This document shows, in pieces, positions 2 to 27,166 of a stretch of 64,000 bases of DNA (position 1 is its first letter; each line of letters begins with the position of its first letter). The stretch lies in NCBI GenBank assembly GCA_000002445.1, contig CH464491.1:320001-384000 (forward strand), read 5' to 3'. Source of the DNA: Trypanosoma brucei (Eukaryota). The notes under the pieces were generated by a model, which was not told the origin of the DNA, ran no database searches, and saw only the letters and a list, made by a program, of their open reading frames with translations. Both the position numbers and the translations under genes were made by a program.

Positions 2-859
2 TGGCAGGATGTTCAATTTCATGAAGCTAACCATTCCGTAGCGGAGATGTGGCCGCGAATCGGTGAGTTGTACCCTGAAGGAATCCGAAACTCTGTGTTT
101 CCGGAAATAACACAGCCGGGCGATACTTCATCTGCGCCTGGTGAACTTGGCTATTTAGCACCTTTCATTGCCGCTCTCAGTCAACACCCGCCTCTAATTC
201 ATCGGCTTCTGGAAACGAAAACACATCCCGTTAATGGTCCATATTCTTTCATCTTTTTTGATCCGAACAGCAACCCTGTTCGTGTTGACATTGATGACCG
301 TGTGCCAGTGGATGCGAAGTGTGAGCCCAAGTTTACACGCGTGCCACACCGGTCTTGGTACCCGCTGCTGCTGGAGAAGGCATATGCGAAGTTTGTTGGT
401 GGGTACGCAAAGCTCGACCAGTGCACACCACACGAAACCCTCCGTGATCTAACGGGCCGTCCAGTGCTACATATCCCTTTTGATGATCGACTCGCAGATG
501 CAGCGAATACGGGTGACTTCCGATCTGTGAAATTCTGGAAGGGGATTAAAAGGAACCTCGCGGCTGGAGATGTGATCACATGCATAAGCAACCACGAAAG
601 TGTGGACGGCCTTCACTCTCAATGCAGTTACGCTCTCCTTAGTGTAATCGAAACTGTGCATGAATCGAATGATGTCTCTGACATCGTGATCAAATTACAC
701 AACTGCTACTACGATAGCCCGACATACGACGGCCCACTGTGTAACGATGATGATAACTGGACCGATGGTTTGAAGAGACTTTGCCATTATAATCCTGAGG
801 AGGATGCACTTTACATACCTGTTCCTGTGTTTCTGCGTAACTTCTCGAGCATGCAGCGC
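2..859 (+). CDS. Calpain-like cysteine-peptidase-family protein, 3' part of an upstream paralogue. It is 5'-partial (runs off the window) and 3'-truncated by the scaffold gap.
   Basis: Frame 2 is open from base 2 (WQDVQFHEANHSVAEMWPRIGELYPEG...) and is homologous to the copy-2 segment LGWQDAEFHDRNRHLADDWVRISELYPEG. From ~200 to 859 it is nucleotide-identical to 4299..4958 (offset 4099). It carries calpain domain II motifs (PFIAALS, GPYSFIFFDPNSNPVRV, WYPLLLEKAYAKFVGGYAKL). Confidence 0.7.
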
Positions 860-959
860 NNNNNNNNNNNNNNNNNNNNNNNNNNNNNNNNNNNNNNNNN
901 NNNNNNNNNNNNNNNNNNNNNNNNNNNNNNNNNNNNNNNNNNNNNNNNNNNNNNNNNNN
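860..959. other. Run of 100 N: a scaffold/assembly gap inside a tandem calpain-like gene array. There is one more isolated n at 1011.
   Basis: Literal n characters in the sequence. Flanking sequences are paralogous calpain-like genes. Confidence 0.99.
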
Positions 960-3900
960 ATTCATAAAGAGGCGGAACAGCTACGGAACTTAAAAAGAGA
1001 CCCGCTTCGTNATAAGAGGGAGATAGATGACCTTGTGGAGCAAATGAATAATACTGTTGGTGAACTTGCCCTGAACTTACTACGTAGCGATCGTGACTAC
1101 TTGCATTTGGCTCCTGAGGGAGTACCGATTGAAGAGCTTCCACTGGAGGTCGATGCAAAGTTTTGTGCTTTGGAGGCGGAGCGTGCAATGTTAAAAGGCG
1201 AGAACAACCCGAAGAATGCGAGTATGATATTATCTTTGGAAGAGAAATTAAATGAGCGTGCTCGCCAGCTGGCTCAAGAGCAACTACTGGAAGACCTGAA
1301 GGAATTGAGTTCTTTTCAGCATTGTGTTCCTCTCTCACTTTTATCGCCTCATACTGACGTTCAGTTTGCTGCTGATGTTGCTGAATTTCGACGACTGAAA
1401 AAAGAAGGGGAGCAAAACACCCCTGCCATTCAGGGCGTTGTCGGGAGACTTAACGCACGTGCGAATGAGCTCGCGGAAGAGTATTTGCGTACCGATCGCG
1501 CATCGTATCTTAACCCTGAACAACTTGGTGTGCCACTTGACTTGCTATCTTTGGACACAGACTCTGAGTTCGTGTCACTGGAAGCTGAAAGGCTAAAATT
1601 GTTGTTGGACAGAGATGGTTATGTGTCTTATATTAATGTGTTGGAAACTCGTTTGAATGATAGGGTGCGGGAGCTGTGTCGTCTGAGTCTACTTGATTTT
1701 CCCGAATTTTTGTTGGATGTGTCGAACTTTGGGGTTCCTTTGGAGGAACTGTGCCTCTTCGAGGATGATGGTTATCGGCGTCACATTTGTTCGTGGTACA
1801 AGCTTCGTAGGACCCCGGAGGTTGATAACGAACGCATTTCTTGTGAAGCTTGTATTGTTGAAATAGTTCGGGAAAAAGCAAAATTGTATACTGAGGAGAT
1901 ACTTCGATCTCTTCCTCTCGTATATCGTGGTATACCGCTACGTGATGCCGATTTGTTTCGGAACGATGGTTTTATTAATAGTGTTAAACGTTTTCGGCGC
2001 GCCGTTCGTGAAAAGCGGGATGAGAGTGAGATTGTGGAGGCCGAAGATAATATGAAAAATATAGCATTTGATATAATTGATGGTTTGATTTTAAAGGAAC
2101 GTGGCAGTCTTGACCAAGAGCCGGAAGGAATATCTATCAATAACGTTCCACTTGATTACGACAACGCCTATCTTGAGATGGAAGCAGAACTCCATAGTCT
2201 TTTAAAGCAACAATCCATGTGTGAAGCGGCTTCCATATTGCAACTCCGAAAAGCAATGAACGACAGGGTACACCATCTTGCCCTTATTGAGCTGGCGAAG
2301 ATGAGGACTTTCTTGGACCCTGAGATATTCGGCATACCCATTAAAGATCTTCGTCTTGAAGGTGACATGGACTTCCGGAACGCGGAAATTAGTCGATATA
2401 AAAAATTAAAAAATGAGGCAAATGCTGATGTGAAAGACCTTGAAGTTTTAATGACAGCACGTGCACTTGAGGTAGCGAAGGCTTTTGTTGCGCGAGAGAG
2501 AGCTTTTTTAGAGCCAGAACCACATGGGTTGTTGTTAGAGGAATTGCTTCTAGATACGCATAAGGTGTTTACGGATTTGGAGAGGGAGCGCCGAGTGCTC
2601 CTCAAGGAGCCAGGGTTGTGTGAAAACACTGTGAAAATCAAATCACTGCAGGACAAAATGAGAGCTGTGGTCAACGAGTTGGCGGTAGCGTACGTTGCAG
2701 AGTCCCGTAAGTTCCTAGATCCTGCGCCAGAGGGTGTTCCGCTTGAGGAATTGTCTTTAGACTCGAACGAGCTATTTATTGAATTGGAGAAAAGGCGGTT
2801 TGGGCTCCTGCGGGAGGGGAAGGGAGATGAGGGTAATCTTAAAGATGTCGAGAAAAGTATGCAGGACTGCATTCGTGAGTTGGCTAAGGGGCTTTTGAAG
2901 GAAAATCGTGCCTATCTCAACCAAAAGCCATTAGGTATACCACTTGATTATCTACCCCTCAACAACGACAAGAAGCTCCGTGAATTAGAGAGGAAACGAC
3001 GGGAACTTCTGAATACCTACGATAATGATTCTCCCCAAGTGAAGTCTATAGAGGGGGTGATTATTAAGCGAATTGACAAAATTGCTGCTCGTTACCTTGA
3101 AGGAGAGCGCTCCTTTCTGGATCCTTGTCCACAAACTGTTCCCCTGCGTTACTTGCCTCTTAACGCAGACACCAATTTTTGTTCCCTGGAACAGAGGCGG
3201 AGGGAGCTGCGCAGGGGAGGAGACACTGCCGAAGATGATGCAATGATAAAGGAACTGGAAATTCGTATAAATGATCGCGCTCATGAACTGGCTAAAGAGG
3301 TACTACACAATGGTCGGCTTTTTCTTCATCCTGAAATTCTCGGTGTCGCAGTTTCTGATATTCCTTTGAGTGATCACGAACCGTTTGTTCAACTTGAAGA
3401 AGCTCTGAGAAGAATCAAGGTCGACAACCCAATAAACAGCTTTATGGAGGTTGACCTAAGGGAGAAATTAAAGCAGTGTGCGAGACAGGTAACTGAAAAG
3501 ATGCTCGATGAAGAACGGAGTTTCTTGGATCAAAATCCTTTGGGTATTCCACTGAACAGTTTGATGCTGAATTATGACCCGAAAATGCAAGAACTCGAGC
3601 GAGTGAGAAGGAAGAAACTGCGGGATAAAGTGGACGCTAACGAGGAGGAGAGGGAGATGGTGAGGCGCGTCAACGAGATGGCGGAGGAGGAATTACGCCG
3701 TCAACGTATGTACCTTCCGGCCACACCATTGGGAATCCCATTCCAGTACTTGGGTCTTGACAGCGATGGGAAATTTGGCCAAATGGAAAATTTTCTACGC
3801 ACATTGAAAAGGGATCCTCTGTCGAAAGAAAAAGCGATTCGTGATCAGGAGAACGCAAATAGGCAGTACGTATTTAGAACGGCAGCGGAATACAAACGAA

Positions 3901-5993
3901 GGGAGCGCGCGTATCTTAACCCCGAGCCTAATGGAGTTTCCCTTAAGCGGCTATCCCTAGATACTGATCCCAAGTTTCAGAAGTTAGAACAAATGAGAAG
4001 AATGCTGATGCATAGCTCTGATTCAAATGATGCCCAAATTGGTCATTTGGAACATTTGGCTAACGAATATGTGCTTCAACTCGCTTTGCAACAGCTCGGG
4101 TGGCAAGACGCAGAATTCCATGACAGAAATAGGCACCTCGCAGACGATTGGGTGCGCATTAGCGAACTATACCCTGAAGGTAAATACGTACCCTTTGAAC
4201 CCACAAAAGCTAACGGTTGCTCGGTTGTCTCCGCGCCCAACGACGCAAGTTACCTGGCACCTTTTATCGCCGCTTTGAGCCGCTGTCCAGATATGCTAAG
4301 GCAATTATGTGATACAACATCACATCCCGTTAATGGTCCATATTCTTTCATCTTTTTTGATCCGAACAGCAACCCTGTTCGTGTTGACATTGATGACCGT
4401 GTGCCAGTGGATGCGAAGTGTGAGCCCAAGTTTACACGCGTGCCACACCGGTCTTGGTACCCGCTGCTGCTGGAGAAGGCATATGCGAAGTTTGTTGGTG
4501 GGTACGCAAAGCTCGACCAGTGCACACCACACGAAACCCTCCGTGATCTAACGGGCCGTCCAGTGCTACATATCCCTTTTGATGATCGACTCGCAGATGC
4601 AGCGAATACGGGTGACTTCCGATCTGTGAAATTCTGGAAGGGGATTAAAAGGAACCTCGCGGCTGGAGATGTGATCACATGCATAAGCAACCACGAAAGT
4701 GTGGACGGCCTTCACTCTCAATGCAGTTACGCTCTCCTTAGTGTAATCGAAACTGTGCATGAATCGAATGATGTCTCTGACATCGTGATCAAATTACACA
4801 ACTGCTACTACGATAGCCCGACATACGACGGCCCACTGTGTAACGATGATGATAACTGGACCGATGGTTTGAAGAGACTTTGCCATTATAATCCTGAGGA
4901 GGATGCACTTTACATACCTGTTCCTGTGTTTCTGCGTAACTTCTCGAGCATGCAGCGCTGTCACATAAACTGTGGCGACCGTCTGACTGCGCCTGGTGAG
5001 TGGACTGGGGTAAGCTGTGGAGGAAACCCGAAGTTCACAACTTTCCGGAACAACCCCATCTATCTTGTGGAAAACAAAACCTCCCGTCCCGTTACCATTC
5101 TTGCTGAGCTGCGGCATCATGCGCCAGCATACCGTGACCCTGACGATGTAAATCACTATCACCAGTCTGGGCTTGCACTGCTAAAGGCGATAAACACGCG
5201 TATGCCTGTGAGTCCGATCTTGACAAGTGTGACACACCGCTTTTTGCATAGGGGCATGATGTTGGATGCACGGGAGGTGTGTGCTCAAATGGAGTTGCCT
5301 CCGAGTACCACGTGCTATCTCGTCCCATATACGTTGGGTCGTGAGAACTATGGAAAGTTTCACATATCTGTGTACCCCGGTCTTGCAAAGGTGAATCTTG
5401 CCCCTCTTCGAACTGCGGCTCTCTTTGCCTCTCCTGTTGTTATTTCTATGTCGTTGAAAACGGAACTGCGGAACGGTGTGAAGGTTGAGTTTGTTGTGAG
5501 CAGAGCATGTGATGCTCATGTTTTGCTTTGTCAGAGACGACCAAAGGTTATTGATGTATGTAAAAGTGATTTACTCGGTGATTTCAGTGTTAACATGGCA
5601 GTTTATGATGAAAATGGAATCCTGTTGATGAACACAGGGGAGCCTAGGAATGCGCGGGAGGTTGCGGTTTCCTTCCGAGTTCCCCAGCAAGGTTTGTATT
5701 CTGCTGTAATTATGGCTCTTGGCGTGGATCGCCGAGGAAATCATAGAGGATGTCCCTGCCACCTAACGATATTTACGTCGAAAAAAGCGAAAGTGAGACT
5801 CCTTGGTACGGTCCCTAATTTTCCCAGGCGTGCAACACCAAGAACCTCTATCCGAAGTCAGTCAGCGGAAATCATGACACCAGTTAGTTTAACACCAAGA
5901 GACGGTCCCAAAACTGCAGGTTCGTTTCATTTGCCGTATATTTCCGGTGGACAGTCAACGACAGACTCTCCTTTTGTAATGGGCATAAAATGA
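960..5993 (+). CDS. Large calpain-like protein with a central array of ~68-aa repeats and a C-terminal inactive calpain core (domains II+III). Similar to the H49/ClpGM6-type cytoskeletal calpain-like proteins of trypanosomes. The 5' end is lost in the gap.
   Basis: One continuous ORF from the gap to the TGA at 5991-5993. It has ~15 units with consensus (F/Y)L(D/N)PxPxG(V/I)PLxxLxLDxDxxFxxLExxRRxL at ~205-nt period. A calpain-like region follows (4140-5990) with the catalytic Cys and His positions substituted. The ORF-track start at 804 is an artefact of reading through the Ns. Confidence 0.8.
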   Translation: MHKEAEQLRNLKRDPLRXKREIDDLVEQMNNTVGELALNLLRSDRDYLHLAPEGVPIEELPLEVDAKFCALEAERAMLKGENNPKNASMILSLEEKLNERARQLAQEQLLEDLKELSSFQHCVPLSLLSPHTDVQFAADVAEFRRLKKEGEQNTPAIQGVVGRLNARANELAEEYLRTDRASYLNPEQLGVPLDLLSLDTDSEFVSLEAERLKLLLDRDGYVSYINVLETRLNDRVRELCRLSLLDFPEFLLDVSNFGVPLEELCLFEDDGYRRHICSWYKLRRTPEVDNERISCEACIVEIVREKAKLYTEEILRSLPLVYRGIPLRDADLFRNDGFINSVKRFRRAVREKRDESEIVEAEDNMKNIAFDIIDGLILKERGSLDQEPEGISINNVPLDYDNAYLEMEAELHSLLKQQSMCEAASILQLRKAMNDRVHHLALIELAKMRTFLDPEIFGIPIKDLRLEGDMDFRNAEISRYKKLKNEANADVKDLEVLMTARALEVAKAFVARERAFLEPEPHGLLLEELLLDTHKVFTDLERERRVLLKEPGLCENTVKIKSLQDKMRAVVNELAVAYVAESRKFLDPAPEGVPLEELSLDSNELFIELEKRRFGLLREGKGDEGNLKDVEKSMQDCIRELAKGLLKENRAYLNQKPLGIPLDYLPLNNDKKLRELERKRRELLNTYDNDSPQVKSIEGVIIKRIDKIAARYLEGERSFLDPCPQTVPLRYLPLNADTNFCSLEQRRRELRRGGDTAEDDAMIKELEIRINDRAHELAKEVLHNGRLFLHPEILGVAVSDIPLSDHEPFVQLEEALRRIKVDNPINSFMEVDLREKLKQCARQVTEKMLDEERSFLDQNPLGIPLNSLMLNYDPKMQELERVRRKKLRDKVDANEEEREMVRRVNEMAEEELRRQRMYLPATPLGIPFQYLGLDSDGKFGQMENFLRTLKRDPLSKEKAIRDQENANRQYVFRTAAEYKRRERAYLNPEPNGVSLKRLSLDTDPKFQKLEQMRRMLMHSSDSNDAQIGHLEHLANEYVLQLALQQLGWQDAEFHDRNRHLADDWVRISELYPEGKYVPFEPTKANGCSVVSAPNDASYLAPFIAALSRCPDMLRQLCDTTSHPVNGPYSFIFFDPNSNPVRVDIDDRVPVDAKCEPKFTRVPHRSWYPLLLEKAYAKFVGGYAKLDQCTPHETLRDLTGRPVLHIPFDDRLADAANTGDFRSVKFWKGIKRNLAAGDVITCISNHESVDGLHSQCSYALLSVIETVHESNDVSDIVIKLHNCYYDSPTYDGPLCNDDDNWTDGLKRLCHYNPEEDALYIPVPVFLRNFSSMQRCHINCGDRLTAPGEWTGVSCGGNPKFTTFRNNPIYLVENKTSRPVTILAELRHHAPAYRDPDDVNHYHQSGLALLKAINTRMPVSPILTSVTHRFLHRGMMLDAREVCAQMELPPSTTCYLVPYTLGRENYGKFHISVYPGLAKVNLAPLRTAALFASPVVISMSLKTELRNGVKVEFVVSRACDAHVLLCQRRPKVIDVCKSDLLGDFSVNMAVYDENGILLMNTGEPRNAREVAVSFRVPQQGLYSAVIMALGVDRRGNHRGCPCHLTIFTSKKAKVRLLGTVPNFPRRATPRTSIRSQSAEIMTPVSLTPRDGPKTAGSFHLPYISGGQSTTDSPFVMGIK
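1096..4130 (+). repeat. Coding tandem repeat array, ~15 degenerate units of ~204-207 nt (68-69 aa).
   Basis: Recurrent FLDPEPxGVPLEELxLDxDxxFxxLExxRR blocks beginning near 1100, 1305, 1510, 1715, 1920, 2125, 2310, 2505, 2710, 2915, 3115, 3320, 3525, 3715 and 3910. Confidence 0.75.
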
Positions 5994-8167
5994 TTTTTTT
6001 TTCCAGCCTCCAGGCAAGTGAAACCATCGTTATCGTTTTTTTTGTTTTTGTGATCGTTTTTTTTTTGTTCTGTCGTCTCTTTCGTCATTTTGTGTGGGAT
6101 CCTCAAAGTATAAGTGCTTTTTTTCCTTTCTTTCGACGGCCTTGTCACGCGGTCGACATCGTATTATCGTAGCGCAAATGCGCGATTAATGTTTTCATTC
6201 TTTGTATTGATGCACCCAACGGCGACAAGTATAGTAATATTCTACCACTATTCTTCGCAAACGCACTTTCCCCCCTTTTTTATTTGTAGTGTGTTAAAAT
6301 GGTAGCAGTTTGCTGACTTGCGTGTGTATGAGGTATATACCTTCATTCTATTTGTTATACTCGCTTTTTTGCTATATTCGTTATATTCTCTGCCATTTTA
6401 CCTCCTTTACTCTTAGCAAGTGTCCACTTTTCCGTATACTTACTCATTTTTTTACACGTGTTCCTCTCTTTTTTTTTTCTTGAGTGTAATATCTTGCCCT
6501 TACATGTTTGTATTTATTTAACCTTTATCACCGCACGCTTCGTTGGCCAGATGATTGTAGTTTGCGCCCTATGATTTTTAGCTTTTTTGTGTGTGCTTTG
6601 CGTTCACACTTTTATGCGACGCATTTATTCCGTTGTATCGATCATTTTGTATCGTGTCACTGTAACATCAACAACGGACAATTAAAATGAATTTGTTCAC
6701 ATATTTATCACTCGTCCGGCGCTTTCAAGAATTTTTTTGAAAAGACAATTTTTACTGCTAGTTTGCATAATTTAATTCTTCCTAAAGGTGGTTCGGCAAC
6801 TGTAACGGGTCTGATGGGACATAAAATACTTTTTTTTAAAAAAAAGAAAAGGAAGGAAGAAAAAAAAAGACAAAAAGAAATGAGGAATGACGCTGCAATA
6901 ACTGACAGCCTCTCATTTATTTCGTCATTCCTTTTACATGCGCTTGTGTTTATTATTTTCGTATCTTTCTGAAGGGGGAAGAGAGAGAAGGATAATTCGG
7001 CATTGGGCATTTGAAGGAAATGACAGGAAGGGTGGTGAAGGGAATTGTTTCGTTTTCATTTTGAAGTAGAGACAATAATCGCAAATAAACGGAATTATTA
7101 TTATTATTATTTAGTGCTTTGTTTCAAAAATACGGACCTCTTTTTTTTTTGTATGTGTGCTTTCTTATTTTGATTTTCCTATTTTTTCTCCTCCTTTTTT
7201 TTAAAAAAAAAGAAACTTTATCTGCCCTGTTTTTTTTAATTCCACAGGAACAGATGCACGTTTTGTTGATGCAACGGCAATTGATGCGGATTTTAAGCAT
7301 ATCAGCACGCTGCCATAGTCCAAAGAGGGAGTAAAACATCATCTAATGTTTTTATTTTGAGTATTTATTTGGTATTCCCTTACACACTATTTTTTTTCGG
7401 GTCTATTTCCCTGTCGCCGACCGTTTTTTTTTCCCCCTCTTTCATTCTATTTTTTCCATTTTCATTGTTAGTGAACCAATGATATCAAGATTATTTATAC
7501 TTTTTGTTGTTATTGAACAAGTGCGAATTGTTTTACTCCAAATCCAATTCCTTCAAGGTGCTTTTTTTAAAAAAATATTATTACTCTTCATGTTAACATT
7601 AGAGTTAAATATTTTATTGTTCCCTCTTCTTTTCCCTTGCTGTTTTTTCTTCCTTCTCGTTGGGGAACCAAAACGTGCTGAACAAAAAAAAACAATCAAC
7701 AAAAGGGAAGGTGTAGGACAATAGGAAAGATTAGAAAGACCAGAGAAAGAAGCCGAATCAGTACGAAGGCCAAGCAGAGAGATTGCAGTAGTTAAATAAG
7801 AGAGGAATAAGCAAGAAGAAGGATAACGCGGTTTCATACGTTTATTTTTTGTGTGGTCCTGACAACACCGGGCTCTCTGTGTTTAAAACAAATTTACTGG
7901 TACTTGTGTGACCAAGTGTGTCGAGCCATTAAAACGCACAGGACATTAGACAGCTAAGAGAACAAGGAAGAGGTTTAAGTTGAATAAAGAGGGTTATTGT
8001 GAGCAGAAAATATCATCACTGTACCGCCGAGATAAATCTAAAAAGAAAAAAAAAAGAGAAATTAACAACCCTTTCCTCCAGAGAAAAAAAAAAAGAGGAA
8101 AAGAAGAGGGCGAAAGAAGAGTCAAAATAAACAATCAAGATATTGGTGGTAGAAAGTGTTTTGAATC

Positions 8168-9166
8168 ATGCAAGGGCAAAACCAAGCAGCAGTGGATGGC
8201 ACTATGGCCTACACCTTTCAGCACCCACCACAGGGGTTCTTACACGCACAATACAGGGATCCTCACAGCAGTGTAGGCCGTAAGCAATATGCCAATATTA
8301 TGCATGACCGTCGTGTGTATCGCGGGAATACGTACGCCGCCGTGCCCATGTCAACATATGCGCGAGACGAGGAAGAGCGAGTGGTTCGCGAGGCAAACAG
8401 ACGTCGCAAGGAACTTCAGCAGCGGGCCACTTCTATAAAGCGTCGTAAAGAACTTGACGCAGCCCAACGGAAACTTGCGACTCCGCCCCCCGTTGTTGGA
8501 CGGCAGCACATAGAAGTACAAACGGAGGAATTCCTCGAGGAACTGAAGGATGAGGTGGAAGTGGTTCAGCAGGAAACACAAACTGATCCCCTTCTCGACC
8601 GCCCTGCGACACCACCGTATGTTCCTGTAAAGTCTGGTCGTGATGCGGAGTCGCAAATTAATGAAGGAGATTTGTTTCACTTCGACGACGCCGTTGACCC
8701 GATTCTCGATGTTATGGTTGGAAAGACACTTGAACAAGCGATGTTGGAGGTATTGCAGGAGGAAGAACTGGAACTTCTGCGGCAGCAGCAACTGGAGTTT
8801 GAGCAACGACGCAAGGAGGAGTTACTGGAGGCACAGCGACTTGAAGCTCGTGAGAAACGCCTCTTTGAGGAGAAGGAGCGGCGGAAAAAGCAGGAAATCG
8901 AGCGCATCAAGCGCGAGAAGGCTACACGTGAGAAGCTCCAGGCCCGTCAGTTTGCCAAGATGTATTTAATGAACCTCGAAAACCGTGTCTTTGCAAGGCT
9001 TCAGGATGAGGGCTGGTTTCGTGATCGCGTATTACACGAGGTGGAGTTTGACTTCTTCCCGTGGCTCATGGATCAGGTCGCGGTGGAACTTGAAAAGAAG
9101 CAGCGGGCGCGTGTGTTGGTAGACGATCTCATTCGCCAAGTAGTTGCCATACAGTTGAATAGCTGA
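8168..9166 (+). CDS. RSP3: Radial spoke protein 3 (axonemal radial spoke stalk/AKAP).
   Basis: Carries the motif ANIMHDRRVYRGNTYA, characteristic of RSP3 (Chlamydomonas NIMFDRRVVRGNTYA). An acidic/coiled-coil C-terminal half follows, as in RSP3. The ORF is ATG-initiated and 332 aa. Confidence 0.8.
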   Translation: MQGQNQAAVDGTMAYTFQHPPQGFLHAQYRDPHSSVGRKQYANIMHDRRVYRGNTYAAVPMSTYARDEEERVVREANRRRKELQQRATSIKRRKELDAAQRKLATPPPVVGRQHIEVQTEEFLEELKDEVEVVQQETQTDPLLDRPATPPYVPVKSGRDAESQINEGDLFHFDDAVDPILDVMVGKTLEQAMLEVLQEEELELLRQQQLEFEQRRKEELLEAQRLEAREKRLFEEKERRKKQEIERIKREKATREKLQARQFAKMYLMNLENRVFARLQDEGWFRDRVLHEVEFDFFPWLMDQVAVELEKKQRARVLVDDLIRQVVAIQLNS

Positions 9167-9170
9167 GATA

Positions 9171-9185
9171 TAAATAAATAAATAA

Positions 9186-9218
<33 letters not shown>
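9171..9218. repeat. (AAAT)6 followed by an (AT)~14 microsatellite, immediately 3' of the RSP3 stop.
   Basis: The tract aaataaataaataaataaataaatatatatatatatatatatatatatata is seen directly. Confidence 0.95.
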
Positions 9219-9220
<2 letters not shown>

Positions 9221-10292
9221 CATATGCATAAATAAAATATGTGTATTTACATGTATTTATTCACTTTTTCTACTGTTGGAGAGGTAAAAGGAGAGTATGC
9301 ACTGACCAACGGCTAGTGCTGTGGTTAAGCGGCACGATACAATGAAGGGAAGCGAAGGAGGAGCGGGATATCGTCGGCCCGCAACCGGTTAGAGCAGAAA
9401 TAATGAATGAAAGACACGTGAGAAGGAAAGAGGATGTTAGATGTTAATCTTTTCCTTTAAGCGATTCCATCCTCTCTTCTGCTGCACTCTCTACTTGTAC
9501 GATGTCAATTTCTCACTCCTTCAACTTTTTAGGCTTGTGAATTTGCTCGCTATTTTTATCATCCTTTTTGTTTTTTTGTGTGTGTTTGTGGTTGTCGCCT
9601 TTCTTCCTACAGTCACCGCCCCCCTATTCGCTTCTCTTTCGGATCACGCTCTCCTTCTCGTCATTTGAGCATATGTCACCGCCAGTGTTATTGGCATGTT
9701 TCAGAGAGTTAAACCATTTCAAACTTTCTTTTTACTGCAGACGCTGTGTAGAACGGTTAGAGACAAGTTTATGGTTGGAAATGGCGAGAAACTTATTGTT
9801 GATCTTCTTACGGTGCTGCTGCTTCCGCAAATAGTTGTTTTACTCGCCGTTTTCACATGAGACTGTTTTGTTTCGTTTTTTGCAATTTTCTCACCAACAG
9901 TCGCTGTTGTCGTTGCGTGTGCGAAGTCATTTTTTTTTTTTTTTGATTCGTGCCGTGTCGTGTTCGGTCATATTTTCTTTGTGTGTGCTTGTGACGTCTT
10001 TTCTTCGTTCCGTCTCATGTAGTTGAAGCTATTGAGGGAACAAGCGAATACGTAAAGCACTCGTGCACAAAGAAATCTTTAAAGGAAAAACGAAAGAGAG
10101 AAAAAACACGTGTCAGCTCTTGAGGTAATTCAGAGAGGCTACATGTATATTTATAGCAGTTCTGTCACTACCAAGATTGCCATGCACGTGAAGAAGAAAA
10201 AAAAAGGAAACTGAGGGGTACTTGTATATTGAGGGATGATAATTAGGAGGGGGTGAAACATGAGGCAGCACCTTCATGTTTAATATAAGAAT

Positions 10293-10326
<34 letters not shown>

Positions 10327-11049
10327 CTTATTTAAAAAAAAACTCTTAGCCTCTTCTATTGTGCTCCTCTCACATCTACTCTCCTTCGGTACCTTTACCT
10401 TACCCTCGCTTTCTTTTTTCTTTTTTTTTTCTTTTTTTGTTTGATTTGTTTGATTTGTTTGACTGAGTGTTTTCTATTGGTGGTGTTGTTGTGGCGGTTG
10501 TTGTTGTTTGGCACTCTACTGTCGTGCACCGGATGTGTCTCATTCTAGAAAAGAAATCAGTTTTTTTTATTCAATATACATATATGTATATATCTTTTAT
10601 TTGTCCATTTTATTGTTATTATTATTTTTGGGGGGAGTGTGGGGGGAGAAATGTCATTGTAGAAGCCATCGCTTGTGGTTGCTGGTTTCTTCTTCCTCCA
10701 CCCCCAGTGCACGATATGTTGATGGTGCTATGAAATTCTCTGTTAGCCGGTTAACGTAATTTTACATCCCCTTCTTCTTCTTTCCCCCTCGGTCGTTTCC
10801 GCTACTCGCATTTCATTCCAGTTATATACGCTACGGTTTGAGATACTCAACCGCTTCCTGCATCGCGAACCTGCAAGCGGAAGAAGCAAGCTCGAAAAAG
10901 GGAGGTACAAAAGGGTTTGCTTCAAGAACTGTTGTTTTTTTTTTTGCTACAAGTTGTTGACCGACACCAGGACACAAAAAAACCGGAGAATCACCGTCTT
11001 AGCCGTTCCGAGTTTCAAAAAAGGAAATCAAAAAAAAAAAGGCGGTAGT

Positions 11050-14000
11050 ATGAAGGCGCTTAGTGACGATTCTCTACCTTCTTTCCGATTGGGATCACAG
11101 GGGAACTTAGCCGCGGTTCCCACGAAGGGACCATCACCGCGGTTTGAACTTGCACCTATTGTGAATGAACTTCAGCAGCAGATCATATCAGCGGACTGTC
11201 AAAGTGATGTCATTGCCATGCTTGGCGCATCCGGACGACTGGTGTTACGTGACACAATGCAAGATGGTCCACCACTAGTGACCTCTGTGCGTAACCCTTA
11301 CCGCGTGTTTATGAGCCCAGACGGCAACCACACTCTTGTCTCCACCACCGATGGGGAGTTGTGTTACTTTTCTGTACGGAATCGTAAATCAACAGGGCAT
11401 TTCACTCTCCACAATCGTGGTGCCAGTGGGAATGAGGCTGCGCGAAATAATGTGGCTTCGTGTGTTTGTTGGCTTTCATCTGATGCTGGGTTTATTGGAA
11501 GTCCACGCACTTCTATCAGTGGGGCAGAAGGAGTAAGCGGCAGTGGCAGTGGTTGGCAGTTGGGATCAGGAACCGTTTACTGCCTTGTGGGCACAAAGTT
11601 GGGTGGTCTTGTGTTTTTAGTGAAAGTGGAGGTACATGGAGACGGGGGTAGTGTGAAGTTAACGTGCTTCCGTTCTCTGCAACTTCCCGACGCCAACCCC
11701 CAACAACAAGTTGGGTCTGTTGAGGTCGAACATATAAACTCCTTATGGGTTTTGTTCGTGTCAACTCCTACAGTTCTCTATCGAGTGGAGGGGCTCATGG
11801 ATTCTCCAGCAGATTTCTTTGATAGTATCACTGCTTCAACAGGTATGTGGAATATTCGTAGGGTGTCTACTGCGGGGAATGCTTCAGCGTCGGGTGCTGT
11901 CGTGTTGTACCGTCCAGGTATTGGGATGCCGGCACAATCGTATGCATGGGCAAGTGTAGCTGGTGTGGTACATGGTTTGCTAAATAGCCGTTCAGATGGA
12001 AGTTCTGCTAATAGTGGTGAAGCAGCTCTTGTTGAATTAACCGACGGAGGTTCTGTTGTGAATGAACAGCTTCTTGACTTGGAGCACGTAGTGGTACCCA
12101 AAAGTAGTTCCAACGAAAGTGCCGCGATTACGGCGGCGGTGCCTGATCACTCCTTCAGAGGCGAGTCACAATTGCCGGTTGGTGCAACGTTGGTGGACGT
12201 TGGACTAACTGCTTTCCATATGTTGTTACTGTATAGGGATAGGTTCATTGTGCTCAACCACCCAGCCGGTCTTTCGTGGCGGGGAGCCTCCTCCACACTG
12301 CAGGGGGATTGGCCATACCTTTGTGAAATTGAGGAGCGTATTCGGTTCGATCCATTTCGTTATTCAAAGCGGGAGTCACCCCTACGCGGAATCGTTCGAG
12401 ACACTGCAGCACGGAAGGTGTACGTCTTTGATGCGAACACTTTCTGGGAGCTTCAGGTAGAACAGGAGCACCGACAGCAGTCGGAACTCTTCCTTGACCG
12501 AGCGGTCAACACAAGGGAGAGCTCTCATCTGCGAAACCGCTACTTCAGGGCCGCGTATCAACTATGCAAATACGATAAGACAATGAGAAATAAGGTTCAA
12601 TTTCTTCGTGGAAGGTTTCTCCTTCAAATAGGTGCTATTCGTCGGGCGATGGATGTTCTTGCGGAATGTGACTTCTTCGAGGACGTTTACCACCTCCTTA
12701 TGTCCTTTCGGAACAGTAAGGTGTTGCAACTGTACGTAGAGAAACGGTACAAGAACTTGGTCAGGCGTGTCACTGAGGGGAAAGGTGTGCAAATGCAGTT
12801 GGCGTGTTTGTTGGCGCTCATTGTAGTGTTGCGGTTGGACACCATTGCACGTAGTGAAAACATAACTGATGCACCTTCCGCAACTGCGGTAGCAGAGACT
12901 TTAACATCGGGGTTGACAGCTTTCATTGAAGAGACGTTGGAAGAGCGATTGCCCATGTTTAGTTGTGTTGGTTACGTTAATCTCATCGCACAGCTGTTGG
13001 AAGAGCAGTCTCGACCAGAATTAGTACTGAGGTTCGCTGAAAGGATGAACAAGATGCGCTACGTTATCACTTACCATGTATCGCGCGCCAACTATGTAGA
13101 GGCAGCAAATGTGCTTGGGGCTCATGCGCGGCGGATCGATATGCGGAGTACCTGGTACAGTCTTGCCCCCATCCTCATGAAGAAGTGTCCTATACAGTTT
13201 ACCAAAGCGATGCTGCGTGCGGTTAGCCGAGATGCCTATGACATGCCCTATTTGCTTTTGAATGCTGAAAAACTCATCCCAGTTTTCACCCAATATGAAC
13301 CGCACATGAACGAGGATCCTGACAATCAGGAGCATCAAGTTGTTTTATTTCTCGACAATTGCATCACGAAATTGGGTTGTGATTCTCCTGCCGTCCACAA
13401 TTACTACCTAAGCCTTGTGGTCAAACACGACACGAAGCGCCTAGATGAATTTCTCCAGTCTTCGCTTTACTATGATATAAGATTTGCCCTGCGGCAGTGC
13501 CTCGAGTCGCGCAGATATCGGCAGTGCGTGAGATTGTACAGCCAACTTCACCTTTATGAGGATGCATTGCGAGCAGCATTGGATTGTGCGGAGTTGACAC
13601 AGGACGAGACGCCAGGTGGCGCCAGCAGTGCCATCGTCGGTAGTGGTGTGAACGAATGTGCTGCGACATCTCTCGTAAGCGGAGCGGATTTGGGATGTAA
13701 TGAAGGTGAGGAAAGGGATGCATGGTCGAGGTTGAGCGTAGCGCAGGAATTACTTCTATCGCTTCCGGATGATATGCCGTTACCTCGGCGCAAGGCCTTA
13801 TGGCTCATTGTGGCTCAACATGTTATTCAGAAGAATGACAACCGTGCAGCACTCCGTATTTTAGCTGACTCCTGTGGAGTTTTGAAACTGGAGGATATTC
13901 TCGAGGAAATGAACGACGTTAGCGTCATGGAAAACTTCAAAGGGGCTATATGCAAGAGTCTTGAGGTTTATGCATCGTTGACTAAGCAGCTTCGGGAGAA

Positions 14001-14373
14001 GCAGTTGGAGGCGGGTCGCATGTCCGAGGAACTGAAACGGGAGATTGAACAGCCTCGCAACAGCTTTGGTTACGTAACAGCGAATCAGCGATGTATAATT
14101 TGCCGCTCAACTTTGCTTCAGGGGGATGCCCCGTTCTTCATTTACCCCCGCTGTTGCCATGCAGTACACGAGTCTTGCGCGGTGGCAAAATTAGAGAGCA
14201 TTGGGGGGTTGGAGGCTTTTGTTGTGGACGAAGGACTTCCAAAAAACTTCTTGGACGGCATTAACTCGACACGTGATTTGGCCCAGATGGATTGCGTGAT
14301 TTGCGGCGAAACTGCAATATTGGAGATTGACATGCCATTATTTACAGAGGACGATTCTTGGTTAGTGTTGTAG
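11050..14373 (+). CDS. VPS11/VPS18-family HOPS/CORVET tethering subunit. It has an N-terminal beta-propeller-like region, clathrin-heavy-chain-repeat-like helical region and a C-terminal RING-H2 zinc finger.
   Basis: 1107-aa ORF. The C-terminus reads CIICRSTLLQGDAPFFIYPRCCHAVHESC...CVIC (RING-H2 spacing). Alpha-solenoid segments (e.g. RFALRQCLESRRYRQCVRLYSQLHLYEDALRAAL) are typical of class C Vps proteins. The first in-frame ATG is at 11050; the ORF-track start at 10954 is TTG within a T/A tract. Confidence 0.6.
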   Translation: MKALSDDSLPSFRLGSQGNLAAVPTKGPSPRFELAPIVNELQQQIISADCQSDVIAMLGASGRLVLRDTMQDGPPLVTSVRNPYRVFMSPDGNHTLVSTTDGELCYFSVRNRKSTGHFTLHNRGASGNEAARNNVASCVCWLSSDAGFIGSPRTSISGAEGVSGSGSGWQLGSGTVYCLVGTKLGGLVFLVKVEVHGDGGSVKLTCFRSLQLPDANPQQQVGSVEVEHINSLWVLFVSTPTVLYRVEGLMDSPADFFDSITASTGMWNIRRVSTAGNASASGAVVLYRPGIGMPAQSYAWASVAGVVHGLLNSRSDGSSANSGEAALVELTDGGSVVNEQLLDLEHVVVPKSSSNESAAITAAVPDHSFRGESQLPVGATLVDVGLTAFHMLLLYRDRFIVLNHPAGLSWRGASSTLQGDWPYLCEIEERIRFDPFRYSKRESPLRGIVRDTAARKVYVFDANTFWELQVEQEHRQQSELFLDRAVNTRESSHLRNRYFRAAYQLCKYDKTMRNKVQFLRGRFLLQIGAIRRAMDVLAECDFFEDVYHLLMSFRNSKVLQLYVEKRYKNLVRRVTEGKGVQMQLACLLALIVVLRLDTIARSENITDAPSATAVAETLTSGLTAFIEETLEERLPMFSCVGYVNLIAQLLEEQSRPELVLRFAERMNKMRYVITYHVSRANYVEAANVLGAHARRIDMRSTWYSLAPILMKKCPIQFTKAMLRAVSRDAYDMPYLLLNAEKLIPVFTQYEPHMNEDPDNQEHQVVLFLDNCITKLGCDSPAVHNYYLSLVVKHDTKRLDEFLQSSLYYDIRFALRQCLESRRYRQCVRLYSQLHLYEDALRAALDCAELTQDETPGGASSAIVGSGVNECAATSLVSGADLGCNEGEERDAWSRLSVAQELLLSLPDDMPLPRRKALWLIVAQHVIQKNDNRAALRILADSCGVLKLEDILEEMNDVSVMENFKGAICKSLEVYASLTKQLREKQLEAGRMSEELKREIEQPRNSFGYVTANQRCIICRSTLLQGDAPFFIYPRCCHAVHESCAVAKLESIGGLEAFVVDEGLPKNFLDGINSTRDLAQMDCVICGETAILEIDMPLFTEDDSWLVL

Positions 14374-14976
14374 CGGCTGACTGTCGCTAAGGCGGTCGCA
14401 GCACGCCGTGTTCCACGTTCTCATTATTTTTTACTCATTCCGTTACCTTGCCGTGTGCTGTGGTGCCCGACGTTCACCCGGAAAACTGCAGGTATGCACG
14501 CTAGTGAGGGAGTCTACAGTACAAAACAAAAGGAAATTTACCGTTGCTATATAGTAATTAATTCACGACCCCTCTTTGTGTGTGTGTGTGTGTTATTTTT
14601 TTTTTTAATGTTATTCTGTGCTACTCGTATAACCTCCGCTATGCCATTTGTTTTCCATATTTGATTCTTGCGTCGATGACGTGAATAAATGTACATTAAT
14701 TCGCGAGATATATATTCATAGAAGTTGTTGGAATCTTTGAAAAAAAAAAACGACCGCCACGTGGCGTGGGGTGGACTAAAGATATTTCCAACCGACCGGT
14801 GCTGCAGTTCATCCGTTTCGCCGAAACGCTTGTCATCTGCTGTGGGTATTACTCACTTGTGATCAAAGAGTAACTGGGAGGAGGCTCACCACGCTGCCGG
14901 CACTCTCCTTGTTTTTCGTTTAGCGGTATCTTTATTTATTTTAGATCAACGTTACGGAACTAACAGCGTGTGTGCA

Positions 14977-26778: not shown

Positions 26779-27166
26779 TGTGCTTTATTTTAACTTGGCC
26801 GTTACTTTTCTAAATACCTTCCCGTGTCACTTTCCATGTGCTATTCTCATTACTGAGCGTAACTCACGTTTCTGACGTTACCGCTAGCTTTTCATGGATG
26901 AATGTGACGGAAACTGAAATCTTACGTGACTTATCTTCTGCTGCGTCTTCGTTGAACTACCGTTGTCGCTATCATACATTGTGCCTTTACCCTCACTTTA
27001 TGTGTTTTGTTAAGTTTCGGCTTCGTATGCGCCCCTATTAAACCTTTACCCTCCGCTTTCTGTCTTCTTGTTACGCACTGTTTTTTCCCCCTCTCGTTTT
27101 TTTCTTTGCTTTCTCATCGTTGTTATATTGCCTTTGCAATTTTTTTTAAAAAGAAGGTACCTCATT

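What the first reader, a model, noticed from the sequence alone, without database searches (positions are those of the whole stretch)
960..4135. Fifteen degenerate 68-aa repeats fused to a calpain core: H49/ClpGM6-like architecture with old, diverged repeats
The array has period ~205 nt with a conserved skeleton FLDPxPxG(V/I)PLxxLxLDxDxxFxxLExxRRxL, but only ~30-40% identity between units. Known trypanosome 68-aa-repeat calpain-like FAZ/cytoskeletal proteins (T. cruzi H49, T. brucei ClpGM6) have near-identical units. A same-period but highly diverged array implies either a distinct paralogue under selection on each unit or an ancient array no longer homogenised. The units likely form a rod-like cytoskeletal linker.
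Basis: partly seen in the sequence, partly recalled or inferred. Interest (0 to 1): 0.55.

Follow-up and report, generated by a model that had tools for sequence, protein, structure and literature searches.

The report
Known trypanosome calpain-like repeat gene fragment
The repeats are real, but this is the already-annotated 3' end of a giant calpain-like cytoskeletal gene in the Trypanosoma brucei reference genome, cut short by an assembly gap, and it belongs to a repeat family that is already described.

Summary
Window 960-4130 encodes one gap-truncated unit plus 15 complete units of 63-69 aa (mean pairwise identity 27%). A calpain-like core follows (4131-5993).

The window is T. b. brucei TREU927 chromosome 11. 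The ORF is the annotated fragment XP_828205.1 (Tb11.v4.0001). The repeat is Pfam DUF7623 and is homologous to the GM6 unit (hhalign 99.1%).

"Fifteen" is only a lower bound. A 100-N gap (860-959) hides about 11 kb of the gene's 5' end. In the gap-free T. equiperdum assembly the orthologue has 53 units, no GM6 units, and N-terminal calpain-like domains. It is the third gene in the tandem cluster ClpGM6 - gene A (Tb927.11.1110) - this gene - RSP3.

The core has Ser/Cys/Asn in place of the Cys/His/Asn triad, so it is not a canonical cysteine protease. The repeats are under purifying selection (pN/pS 0.24). AlphaFold2 predicts a helical hairpin per unit (pLDDT 95).

Degenerate 68-aa units beside or instead of homogenised ones were already described for T. 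cruzi H49/calpains. The architecture call is right, but the novelty claim is not.

One conflict remains. The DAL972 scaffold places GM6 units just upstream of this fragment; I judge that a mis-join.

The parts
2..859 (+). C-terminal calpain-like core of the upstream giant paralogue 'gene A' (XP_828204.1, 5799 aa, partial; probably Tb11.47.0035/Tb927.11.1110), cut off by the gap. It is not part of the finding's gene.
   Evidence: The translation of 2-859 is exactly the C-terminal 286 aa of P0042. Peptidase_C2, 77 bits. 99.8% identical to T. equiperdum L001 19295-20153.
860..959 (.). Assembly gap (100 N). By comparison with the gap-free T. equiperdum contig it hides the last ~1 kb of gene A, the intergenic region, and about 11.2 kb of the 5' part of the finding's gene.
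   Evidence: N run. Window 960-5993 maps to nt 11170-16203 of T. equiperdum gene B counted from its ATG.
960..1112 (+). Partial DUF7623 unit (C-terminal two-thirds) cut by the gap. Contains a single N at 1011.
   Evidence: HMM domain at aa 3-41, covering HMM positions 22-58.
960..1605 (+). Block shared with gene A. Window aa 19-215 (nt 1014-1604) are 100% identical to gene A residues 3742-3938 in the same genome; the rest of the block is shown by DNA identity to T. equiperdum. This is the 3' end of an ~11.8-kb stretch that is 99.85% identical between the two paralogues in T. equiperdum.
1113..4130 (+). Fifteen complete DUF7623 / GM6-type units of 63-69 aa. Unit starts: 1113, 1317, 1521, 1722, 1920, 2121, 2322, 2520, 2727, 2928, 3129, 3336, 3537, 3726, 3927.
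1606..4320 (+). Paralogue-specific 'island': the last ~12.6 units plus the first ~190 nt of the core. It has no near-identical counterpart in gene A or ClpGM6 and is conserved at 98-99% in T. b. gambiense and T. equiperdum.
   Evidence: No megablast match to L001/L011. Matches L002 and L004/L013. pN/pS 0.28.
4131..5993 (+). Calpain-like core and C-terminal region, stop codon at 5991-5993. Peptidase_C2 match at about nt 4146-4964. Catalytic positions are Ser (NDASYLAPF), Cys (QCSYA) and Asn (LHNCY) instead of Cys/His/Asn. A calpain domain III-like start (FRNNPIYLV) follows.
4321..4958 (+). Segment of the core that is 100% identical to window 222-859 (the gene A core). This is evidence of recent homogenisation between the tandem paralogues, or possibly an assembly effect.
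   Evidence: In T. equiperdum, core A versus core B is 99.5% identical over 1090 nt.
1044..5993 (+). The CDS as annotated in GenBank: XP_828205.1 / EAN79093.1, 'hypothetical protein Tb11.v4.0001' (UniProt Q387D8, 'Calpain catalytic domain-containing protein'), 1649 aa. The start codon is an internal Met chosen by the annotators; the true start lies in the gap.
   Evidence: P0033 is 100% identical to the window translation from aa 29 to the stop.

Best explanation
Window 960-5993 is the 3' third of a giant (about 5,400 aa) calpain-like protein of Trypanosoma brucei that is not a canonical cysteine protease. The reference genome annotates it only as a fragment (Tb11.v4.0001), because an assembly gap removes its 5' ~11 kb. 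It is the last of three tandem giant paralogues on chromosome 11: ClpGM6, then gene A (Tb927.11.1110), then this gene ('gene B'), then RSP3 (Tb927.11.1150). The intact gene, as seen in T. equiperdum, has N-terminal calpain-like domains, about 53 diverged DUF7623 units with no homogenised GM6 units, and a C-terminal calpain-like core. Its first 11.8 kb is almost identical to gene A. Its last ~13 units, the first ~190 nt of the core and the C-terminal tail are its own. Shown here: the array, its homology to GM6, the altered catalytic triad, purifying selection, the gene fragment's identity, and the locus structure. Predicted: each unit folds as a short Pro/Gly-rich connector (PxGVPLxxLxLxxD) followed by an antiparallel helical hairpin (~15-residue and ~26-30-residue helices). 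Inferred: tandem units build a long, semi-rigid helical rod, and the calpain-like end domains act as attachment modules rather than enzymes. On this reading the protein is a structural spacer of the flagellum attachment zone (FAZ) or flagellar cytoskeleton, like ClpGM6 (whole FAZ) and Tb927.11.1110 (FAZ plus anterior tip). In the gene-A lineage and in other genera each unit keeps its own sequence identity over long evolutionary times, so the units are probably non-equivalent positions on the rod rather than interchangeable spacers. That positional signal is only weak for this gene's own last units.
For: Array and family: Pfam DUF7623 x14 (619.9 bits) plus Peptidase_C2; 16 units by own HMM; lag-67 periodicity at ~12 sd; hhalign to GM6 units 99.1%. 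Identity of the gene: 100% match to XP_828205.1, and the upstream fragment is the end of XP_828204.1. Locus: in the gap-free T. equiperdum contig the GM6 array (TRF period 204, 23 copies) runs into a few degenerate units, its own core and a stop. Gene A follows, with 64-66 diverged units and no GM6 motifs. Gene B follows (L013 2758-18960): no N, 53 units, 0 GM6 motifs, nt 49-11816 99.85% identical to gene A, and window 960-5993 collinear at 99.1%. RSP3 comes next. Three distinct C-terminal cores exist (core 0 versus A 90.5%, versus B 88.9%). Both Sanger assemblies break about 600 nt into the gene-A-identical block, as expected for a long collapsed repeat. Function: triad Ser/Cys/Asn. pN/pS is 0.24 in the repeats (P=5e-5 versus neutrality) and 0.05 in the core; there are 0 stops in frame against 61 and 103 in the other frames. 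AlphaFold2 of units 8-10 gives pLDDT 95.4 and pTM 0.83, with helix-loop-helix per unit. Localisation of relatives: ClpGM6 at the FAZ (PMC4121973); TrypTag lists Tb927.11.1110 as 'FAZ + anterior tip' and Tb927.11.1090 as 'Whole FAZ'; antibodies to T. cruzi degenerate repeats stain the cytoskeleton and flagellum (PMC3214072). Unit individuality: gene A versus T. congolense has same-position identity 0.57 against 0.33 off-position, with 15/15 best matches on the diagonal; Angomonas versus Phytomonas gives 13/15.
Against: The T. b. gambiense DAL972 scaffold contradicts the three-gene model. Downstream of gene A it is contiguous (no N) through a 'MACQEV' N-terminus and 5 degenerate units into GM6 units. 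GM6 units fill the 10 kb up to the gap before the window-orthologous fragment. That would make this ORF the 3' end of a GM6-bearing gene. No localisation, expression or knock-down data for this particular gene were found. For this gene's own last 15 units, positional orthology to other species is weak (diagonal 0.32-0.36 versus 0.30 off-diagonal). Their individual constraint therefore rests mainly on pN/pS from only 33 substitutions. The T. equiperdum assembly carries frameshift errors and could itself be mis-joined in the near-identical stretches.
Confidence: 0.68

Rival explanations
1. The ORF is the true 3' end of ClpGM6, or of a second GM6-bearing gene. On this model the diverged units are the degenerate C-terminal flank of the homogenised GM6 array, as in T. 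cruzi H49/calpains, and the gap hides the GM6 units.
For: In DAL972 the 10 kb immediately upstream of the orthologous fragment is all canonical GM6 units (>=48 copies at exact 204-nt spacing) up to a 100-N gap. Downstream of gene A, DAL972 runs without Ns into a ClpGM6-type N-terminus, 5 degenerate units and GM6 units. [quoted passage not shown] H49 conserved blocks are flanked by degenerate units.
Against: In the gap-free T. equiperdum contig the GM6 array ends in its own core and stop upstream of gene A. The orthologue of this ORF is continuous for 16.2 kb with 53 units and zero GM6 motifs. TrypTag places the ClpGM6 C-terminus in Tb927.11.1100, upstream of Tb927.11.1110, whereas this ORF abuts RSP3 (Tb927.11.1150). 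In TREU927 the sequence before the gap is the gene A core, not GM6 units. The window's first 3 units are 100% identical to gene A units. DAL972's two ClpGM6-type 5' copies differ by only 3 mismatches and 1 indel in 3430 nt. They sit beside a ~2.9-kb stretch that is 99.9% identical between paralogues, which is typical of an allelic or duplicated contig mis-joined in a reference-guided Sanger scaffold.
Confidence: 0.22
2. The array is a decaying remnant: a pseudogene fragment left by duplication of gene A, whose units diverged because constraint was lost.
For: It has the lowest internal unit identity of all arrays compared (0.28). Positional orthology to any other species is weak. It is annotated 'T. 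brucei spp-specific protein (fragment)' or 'hypothetical protein'. No literature on its expression was found.
Against: The frame is open for 1,677 codons (chance about 1e-42) with 0 stops, against 61 and 103 in the other two frames. pN/pS is 0.24 in the repeats (P=5e-5) and 0.05 in the core between TREU927 and DAL972. The consensus skeleton is intact in all 15 units, and the model is very confident. The island is conserved at 98-99% across three T. brucei-group genomes.
Confidence: 0.05
3. It is an active calpain-type protease, and the repeat region is a regulatory or targeting extension.
For: Peptidase_C2 matches above Pfam's threshold (73 versus 23.8 bits). A profile of kinetoplastid cores hits m-calpain at E=9e-14. 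The Asn of the triad is retained.
Against: The position of catalytic Cys105 is Ser (Gly in gene A). The His of the GHAYS motif is Cys, invariant across 8 kinetoplastid cores. No EF-hand domain was detected. The literature states that ClpGM6 lacks the triad and that most kinetoplastid calpain-like proteins are unlikely to be active (PMC4121973).
Confidence: 0.04

Closest known systems
ClpGM6 of T. brucei (Tb927.11.1090/.1100; Hayes et al. 2014, PMC4121973)
   Same: Same chromosomal cluster and same domain plan: N-terminal calpain-like domains, an array of ~68-aa DUF7623/GM6-type units, and a C-terminal calpain-like core without a catalytic triad. The units are homologous (hhalign 99.1%). ClpGM6 also has a few degenerate units at both ends of its array.
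   Different: ClpGM6 units are 97.6% identical to each other, whereas the window's are 27%. The ClpGM6 core is ~89% identical at DNA level, and its N-terminal unique region differs (55-60% protein identity to the gene A/B type). ClpGM6 has a demonstrated FAZ role; this gene has no functional data.
Gene A: Tb11.47.0035 / probably Tb927.11.1110, XP_828204.1 (DAL972 orthologue CBH17004.1, 6131 aa)
   Same: Immediate upstream tandem paralogue, with diverged DUF7623 units only. In T. equiperdum the first 11.8 kb is 99.85% identical to this gene. 1090 nt of the core are 99.5-100% identical.
   Different: Gene A has 64 units against ~53. The region between the shared block and the core is 4.9 kb in A and 2.7 kb here, and only ~33% identical in protein. 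Gene A has clear position-for-position orthologues in T. congolense and T. theileri (0.53-0.57 identity); this gene's island does not. TrypTag localises Tb927.11.1110 to 'FAZ + anterior tip'.
T. cruzi H49/calpain with degenerate repeats only (XM_804900 / XP_809993; Galetovic et al. 2011, PMC3214072)
   Same: A calpain-like protein with two N-terminal CysPc domains, a central array of degenerate 68-aa units (24) and a C-terminal CysPc plus domain III. It sits in a cluster with paralogues that carry homogenised H49 units. This is the published precedent for a 'same period, diverged units' array.
   Different: Different species. The unit number differs.
Pfam DUF7623 (PF24610)
   Same: The window's units match the model across its full length (profile positions 2-64 of 64), 14 stretches, 619.9 bits.
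   Different: None. It is a plain member. The family has no assigned function (PMC13309793).

Membership tests
Pfam DUF7623 (PF24610) repeat | Match to the family HMM above the gathering score (27 bits) | tested here: met
   619.9 bits, E=4.1e-191, 14 matched stretches; the best stretch covers profile positions 2-64 of 64.
GM6/H49-type 68-aa repeat | Tandem period of about 68 aa (204 nt) | tested here: met
   Units of 63-69 aa, mean ~67; autocorrelation peak at lag 67.
GM6/H49-type 68-aa repeat | Sequence homology of the unit to the canonical GM6 unit | tested here: met
   The GM6 consensus scores 63.6 bits (E=7e-22) against the window-unit HMM. hhalign gives 99.1%, E=6.8e-19, 66 columns. Per-unit identity is 21-40%.
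GM6/H49-type 68-aa repeat | Sequence homology to the canonical T. cruzi H49 unit (L09564) | not tested
Units of T. cruzi calpain-like proteins with DUF7623 repeats (P0025, P0026) score up to 56 bits against the window-unit HMM. The H49 paper reports <60% identity of T. brucei repeats to H49.
Homogenised GM6/H49 array (as in the antigen fragments) | Units near-identical to each other (90-100%) | tested here: not met
   Mean 27%, maximum 40%, against 97.6% for GM6 units.
ClpGM6 gene itself | Carries the near-identical GM6 array in the same ORF | tested here: inconclusive
   Not visible in the window because of the gap. The T. equiperdum orthologue has 0 GM6 motifs in 16.2 kb. The DAL972 scaffold places GM6 units upstream of the fragment across a gap.
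ClpGM6 gene itself | Gene models Tb927.11.1090/.1100, upstream of Tb927.11.1110 | tested here: not met
   The ORF is Tb11.v4.0001. It lies downstream of gene A (XP_828204.1) and directly upstream of RSP3 = Tb927.11.1150.
Calpain, peptidase family C2 | Peptidase_C2 (CysPc) domain | tested here: met
   73.2 bits against a 23.8 cut-off. The core profile hits m-calpain at E=9e-14.
Calpain, peptidase family C2 | Catalytic triad Cys-His-Asn | tested here: not met
   Cys105 aligns to Ser (NDASYLAPF), the His of GHAYS aligns to Cys (QCSYA), and Asn is retained (LHNCY). The protein is calpain-like and not a canonical protease.
Calpain, peptidase family C2 | Ca2+-binding penta-EF-hand domain IV of classical calpains | tested here: not met
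   No EF-hand family in the Pfam scan at E<=0.01.
H49/calpain domain plan (Galetovic 2011) | Two N-terminal CysPc domains, a central 68-aa repeat array, and a C-terminal CysPc (+ domain III) | tested here: met
   The window shows the array plus the C-terminal CysPc and a domain III-like start. In the T. equiperdum orthologue two separate 5' gene-call pieces (228 aa and 1159 aa) each carry a Peptidase_C2 hit. Gene A, which shares this 5' region at 99.85% identity, shows Peptidase_C2 / Calpain_III / Peptidase_C2.
FAZ / cytoskeletal protein | Localisation to the flagellum attachment zone or detergent-resistant cytoskeleton | not testable with these tools
   Only relatives have data: ClpGM6 'Whole FAZ' and Tb927.11.1110 'FAZ + anterior tip'.

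The most novel reading that the evidence does not exclude
Diverged DUF7623 units are not interchangeable spacers but individually conserved, addressable positions on a giant FAZ or flagellar ruler. Unit-by-unit orthology holds across genera (gene A versus T. congolense 15/15; Angomonas versus Phytomonas 13/15). On this reading, this gene's T. brucei-group-specific island of ~13 strongly diverged yet constrained units, embedded between blocks kept identical to its neighbour by gene conversion, gives the paralogue a distinct set of binding partners or a distinct sub-location. The reference model of the ClpGM6 locus (one gene in two fragments plus neighbours) would then need revising to three giant mosaic paralogues.
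Probability: 0.2. Interest if true: 0.45.

Novelty: already known. Interest (0 to 1): 0.2.

Why it matters
For the scan it matters little. The finding is a correct reading of an annotated gene fragment from a described family: Pfam DUF7623, and calpain-like FAZ or cytoskeletal proteins with degenerate 68-aa repeats. Three points have modest value for trypanosome biologists. First, the TREU927 and DAL972 reference assemblies are unresolved and mutually inconsistent across Tb927.11.1090-.1150. The gap-free T. equiperdum contig suggests three giant mosaic paralogues, which affects how RNAi, tagging and proteomic data for 'ClpGM6' and its neighbours are read. Second, diverged DUF7623 arrays keep position-specific unit identity across genera, which points to non-equivalent units. 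Third, the unit is confidently predicted as a helical hairpin whose multi-unit array has no solved counterpart.

Tried and rejected
1. DNA-level repeat detection: TRF finds nothing in 960-4130 because the units are only ~40% identical in DNA. The array is visible only in protein.
2. I first suspected the ORF was the 3' end of ClpGM6, because DAL972 has GM6 units right up to the gap before the orthologue. I then down-weighted this after reading the continuous T. equiperdum genes, the TREU927 gene order and the near-identity of DAL972's two ClpGM6 5' copies. It is kept as the main rival.
3. Positional orthology of the window's own 15 units: only weak (z<=3.3). The best HSPs are in register but at 33-41% identity. 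T. theileri P0027 looked closest but belongs to the gene-A lineage. No clear orthologue of the island exists outside the T. brucei group among the 42 proteins fetched.
5. Two alignments of overlapping triple-unit segments came out out of register and were discarded.
6. Exact-protein look-ups for XP_828204.1 and for the window's own CDS found no record, so no further gap-free T. b. brucei assembly could be examined.
7. Rfam, tRNA and tandem-repeat scans of the whole window found nothing relevant.
8. A two-unit super-repeat is present in the middle block shared by genes A and B but not in the window's units.
Full report
**What is in the sequence**

The mechanically listed ORF 804..5993 runs through a block of 100 Ns at 860-959. 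There is also a single N at 1011. Only 960-5993 belongs to the finding's gene, and that ORF has no real start codon in the window.

The translated region 960-4130 is periodic. BLOSUM62 autocorrelation peaks at lag 67 aa and at its multiples. The lag-67 score is -0.21, against a shuffle maximum of -0.62 +/- 0.034, which is about 12 sd.

An HMM iterated from one unit finds 16 units. One is partial, cut by the gap. Fifteen are complete and lie at nt 1113-4130, each 63-69 aa.

Mean pairwise identity is 27% for protein (range 9-40%) and 40% for DNA. Tandem Repeats Finder therefore sees nothing at DNA level.

The frame has 0 stops, against 61 and 103 in the other two forward frames.

**What it is**

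Pfam already models the unit as DUF7623 (PF24610). There are 14 matched stretches, 619.9 bits, E=4e-191. A Peptidase_C2 domain follows the array.

The window is T. b. brucei TREU927 chromosome 11. GenBank XP_828205.1 ('hypothetical protein Tb11.v4.0001', 1649 aa; UniProt Q387D8) is 100% identical to the translation from nt 1044 to the stop. The 286 codons before the gap (nt 2-859) are exactly the C-terminal end of XP_828204.1. That protein is a 5799-aa 'calpain-like cysteine peptidase, putative, partial'.

The next gene downstream is RSP3, which is Tb927.11.1150 (PMC6140319).

**Relation to GM6 and H49**

I took canonical GM6 units from the T. b. gambiense DAL972 locus, guided by the published antibody peptides (PMC4121973). 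They are 97.6% identical to each other.

Their consensus scores 63.6 bits (E=7e-22) against the window-unit HMM. It is only 21-40% identical to individual window units. A profile-profile comparison of the 15 window units with 11 GM6 units gives 99.1% probability, E=6.8e-19, over 66 of 68 columns.

The units are therefore homologous to GM6 but not homogenised.

I could not obtain the H49 unit itself. Units of T. cruzi calpain-like proteins with DUF7623 repeats score up to 56 bits against the window HMM.

The H49 paper already reports that conserved 68-aa blocks are flanked by degenerate units. It also reports a complete 4,571-aa H49/calpain (XM_804900) with only 24 degenerate repeats, whose antiserum stains the cytoskeleton and flagellum (PMC3214072).

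**Locus structure**

The gap-free T. equiperdum contig CM010682.1 (loci L011, L001, L013, L004) shows three tandem giant genes.

- **Gene 0 (ClpGM6).** Its near-identical 204-bp array (TRF: 23 copies within the locus) runs into a few degenerate units, its own core and a stop.
- **Gene A.** It has an N-terminal region of ~1220 aa with Peptidase_C2 / Calpain_III / Peptidase_C2 hits, 64-66 diverged units, no GM6 motif, and core A.
- **Gene B.** It spans L013 2758-18960 with no Ns, 53 units and no GM6 motif. Window 960-5993 is collinear with it at 99.1%.

In T. equiperdum, nt 49-11816 of gene B are 99.85% identical to gene A. A 2.7-kb B-specific island then follows (window 1606-4320), replacing 4.9 kb of gene A. 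Next come 1090 nt of shared core and a distinct C-terminal tail.

TREU927 agrees. Window residues 19-215 are 100% identical to gene A residues 3742-3938, and window 4321-4958 is 100% identical to window 222-859.

The literature fits this order. TrypTag places the ClpGM6 C-terminus in Tb927.11.1100. Tb11.47.0035 is a separate calpain-like peptidase for which two peptides gave 0.4% coverage. Tb927.11.1110 and .1130 are both called calpain genes.

**The unresolved conflict**

DAL972 tells a different story. Downstream of gene A it is contiguous, with no N, through the same 'MACQEV' start seen in T. equiperdum gene B. After a ~2.9-kb stretch that is 99.9% identical between paralogues, it continues into the ClpGM6-type unique region, 5 degenerate units and GM6 units. 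GM6 units fill the 10 kb up to the gap before the window-orthologous fragment.

I judge this a mis-join, for four reasons.

- The DAL972 post-gene-A copy differs from DAL972's own gene 0 5' region by only 3 mismatches and 1 indel in 3430 nt.
- The switch happens inside a near-identical stretch.
- Both Sanger assemblies stop about 600 nt, roughly one read length, into the gene-A-identical block. That is what a long collapsed repeat would produce.
- In TREU927 the sequence before the gap is the gene A core, not GM6 units.

I cannot exclude real structural variation or an error in the T. equiperdum assembly. The rival gets 0.22.

**Function**

Catalytic residues. A profile of eight kinetoplastid cores aligns to m-calpain at E=9e-14. 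It places catalytic Cys105 opposite Ser in this core (NDASYLAPF) and Gly in gene A. The pairwise alignment to calpain-9 places the GHAYS histidine opposite an invariant Cys (QCSYA). The Asn is retained. No EF-hand was detected. The core is therefore not a canonical calpain protease, as published for ClpGM6.

Selection. Between TREU927 and DAL972 the repeats show 18 synonymous and 15 nonsynonymous differences. That gives pN/pS 0.24 (P=5e-5 against neutrality). The island alone gives 0.28 and the core 0.05. The array is constrained and not decaying.

Localisation of relatives. ClpGM6 and Tb927.11.1110 are at the FAZ. The most likely role is therefore a long structural spacer of the FAZ or flagellar cytoskeleton. 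This last step is inference.

**Evolution of the units**

I indexed units backwards from the core and compared them on the 58 HMM match columns. Gene A and the T. congolense protein show 0.57 identity at the same position against 0.33 off-position, with 15 of 15 best matches on the diagonal. Angomonas against an unnamed metagenome-derived relative (P0012) and against Phytomonas gives 13 of 15 each. Diverged DUF7623 arrays are therefore ancient, and their units keep individual identities.

The window's own units are the exception. Their diagonal identity is 0.32-0.36 against 0.30 off-diagonal. The best HSPs are always in register but reach only 33-41%. The island is about equally distant (0.34-0.40) from gene A and from other genera. 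It is either an old lineage or an accelerated copy; I could not decide which.

**Verdict**

However, the object is an annotated, gap-truncated fragment of a described kind of protein. The 'fifteen repeats' and the contrast with known proteins are artefacts of the gap and of incomplete recall. Interest is low. The residual value lies in the unresolved reference locus and in the position-specific conservation of units.

Noticed in passing
window 860-959 and 1011; ORF 804..5993: A 100-N assembly gap and a single N. The mechanically listed 1729-aa ORF bridges the gap out of gene A's frame and is not a real gene model. The annotated CDS starts at an internal Met (nt 1044).
   Followed up: yes
window 222-859 versus 4321-4958: A 638-nt stretch is 100% identical between the calpain cores of the two tandem paralogues, while the first ~220 nt and last ~550 nt of the cores differ. 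This looks like gene conversion between neighbours, or possibly an assembly effect.
   Followed up: partly
L012 1-3429 versus L012 31510-34939, and L002 1-9898 (T. b. gambiense DAL972, FN554974.1): DAL972 carries two copies of the ClpGM6 5' region that are 99.88% identical. About 106 GM6 units appear to lie between gene A and the Tb11.v4.0001 orthologue, in conflict with the T. equiperdum and TREU927 gene order. This is probably a scaffold mis-join but could be real structural variation.
   Followed up: partly
L001 10001-14161 (P0010; middle block shared by genes A and B, outside the window): The units here show a two-unit super-repeat: identity at unit lags 2 and 4 is 0.42, against 0.32-0.33 at lags 1 and 3. 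'PLDxD' and 'PHxD' unit types alternate. The window's own 15 units do not show this.
   Followed up: partly
P0019 and P0020 (Leishmania tarentolae): Leishmania relatives combine runs of 100%-identical 68-aa units with degenerate units near both ends. The pairing of homogenised and degenerate units is therefore general across trypanosomatids.
   Followed up: no
window 27068-29509, 30886-32232, 36179-38803: Three long ORFs have no Pfam match. The 28-32 kb region has the same positive AT and GC skew as the repeat region, which suggests another charged or coiled-coil-type protein.
   Followed up: no
window 48001-50000: A low-GC stretch (30%) with negative GC skew contains a short TATATATT repeat (49239-49291), inside an otherwise single-strand (+) gene array. 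It is probably a long intergenic region.
   Followed up: no
whole window: All ORFs of 200 aa or more that look like genes are on the + strand, consistent with one polycistronic unit. There were no tRNA or Rfam hits. Genes downstream of RSP3 include a Vps18-like protein, a Plus-3 domain protein, a protein kinase, a RING/PHD protein, a WD40 protein and a DUF4470/4471 protein.
   Followed up: partly
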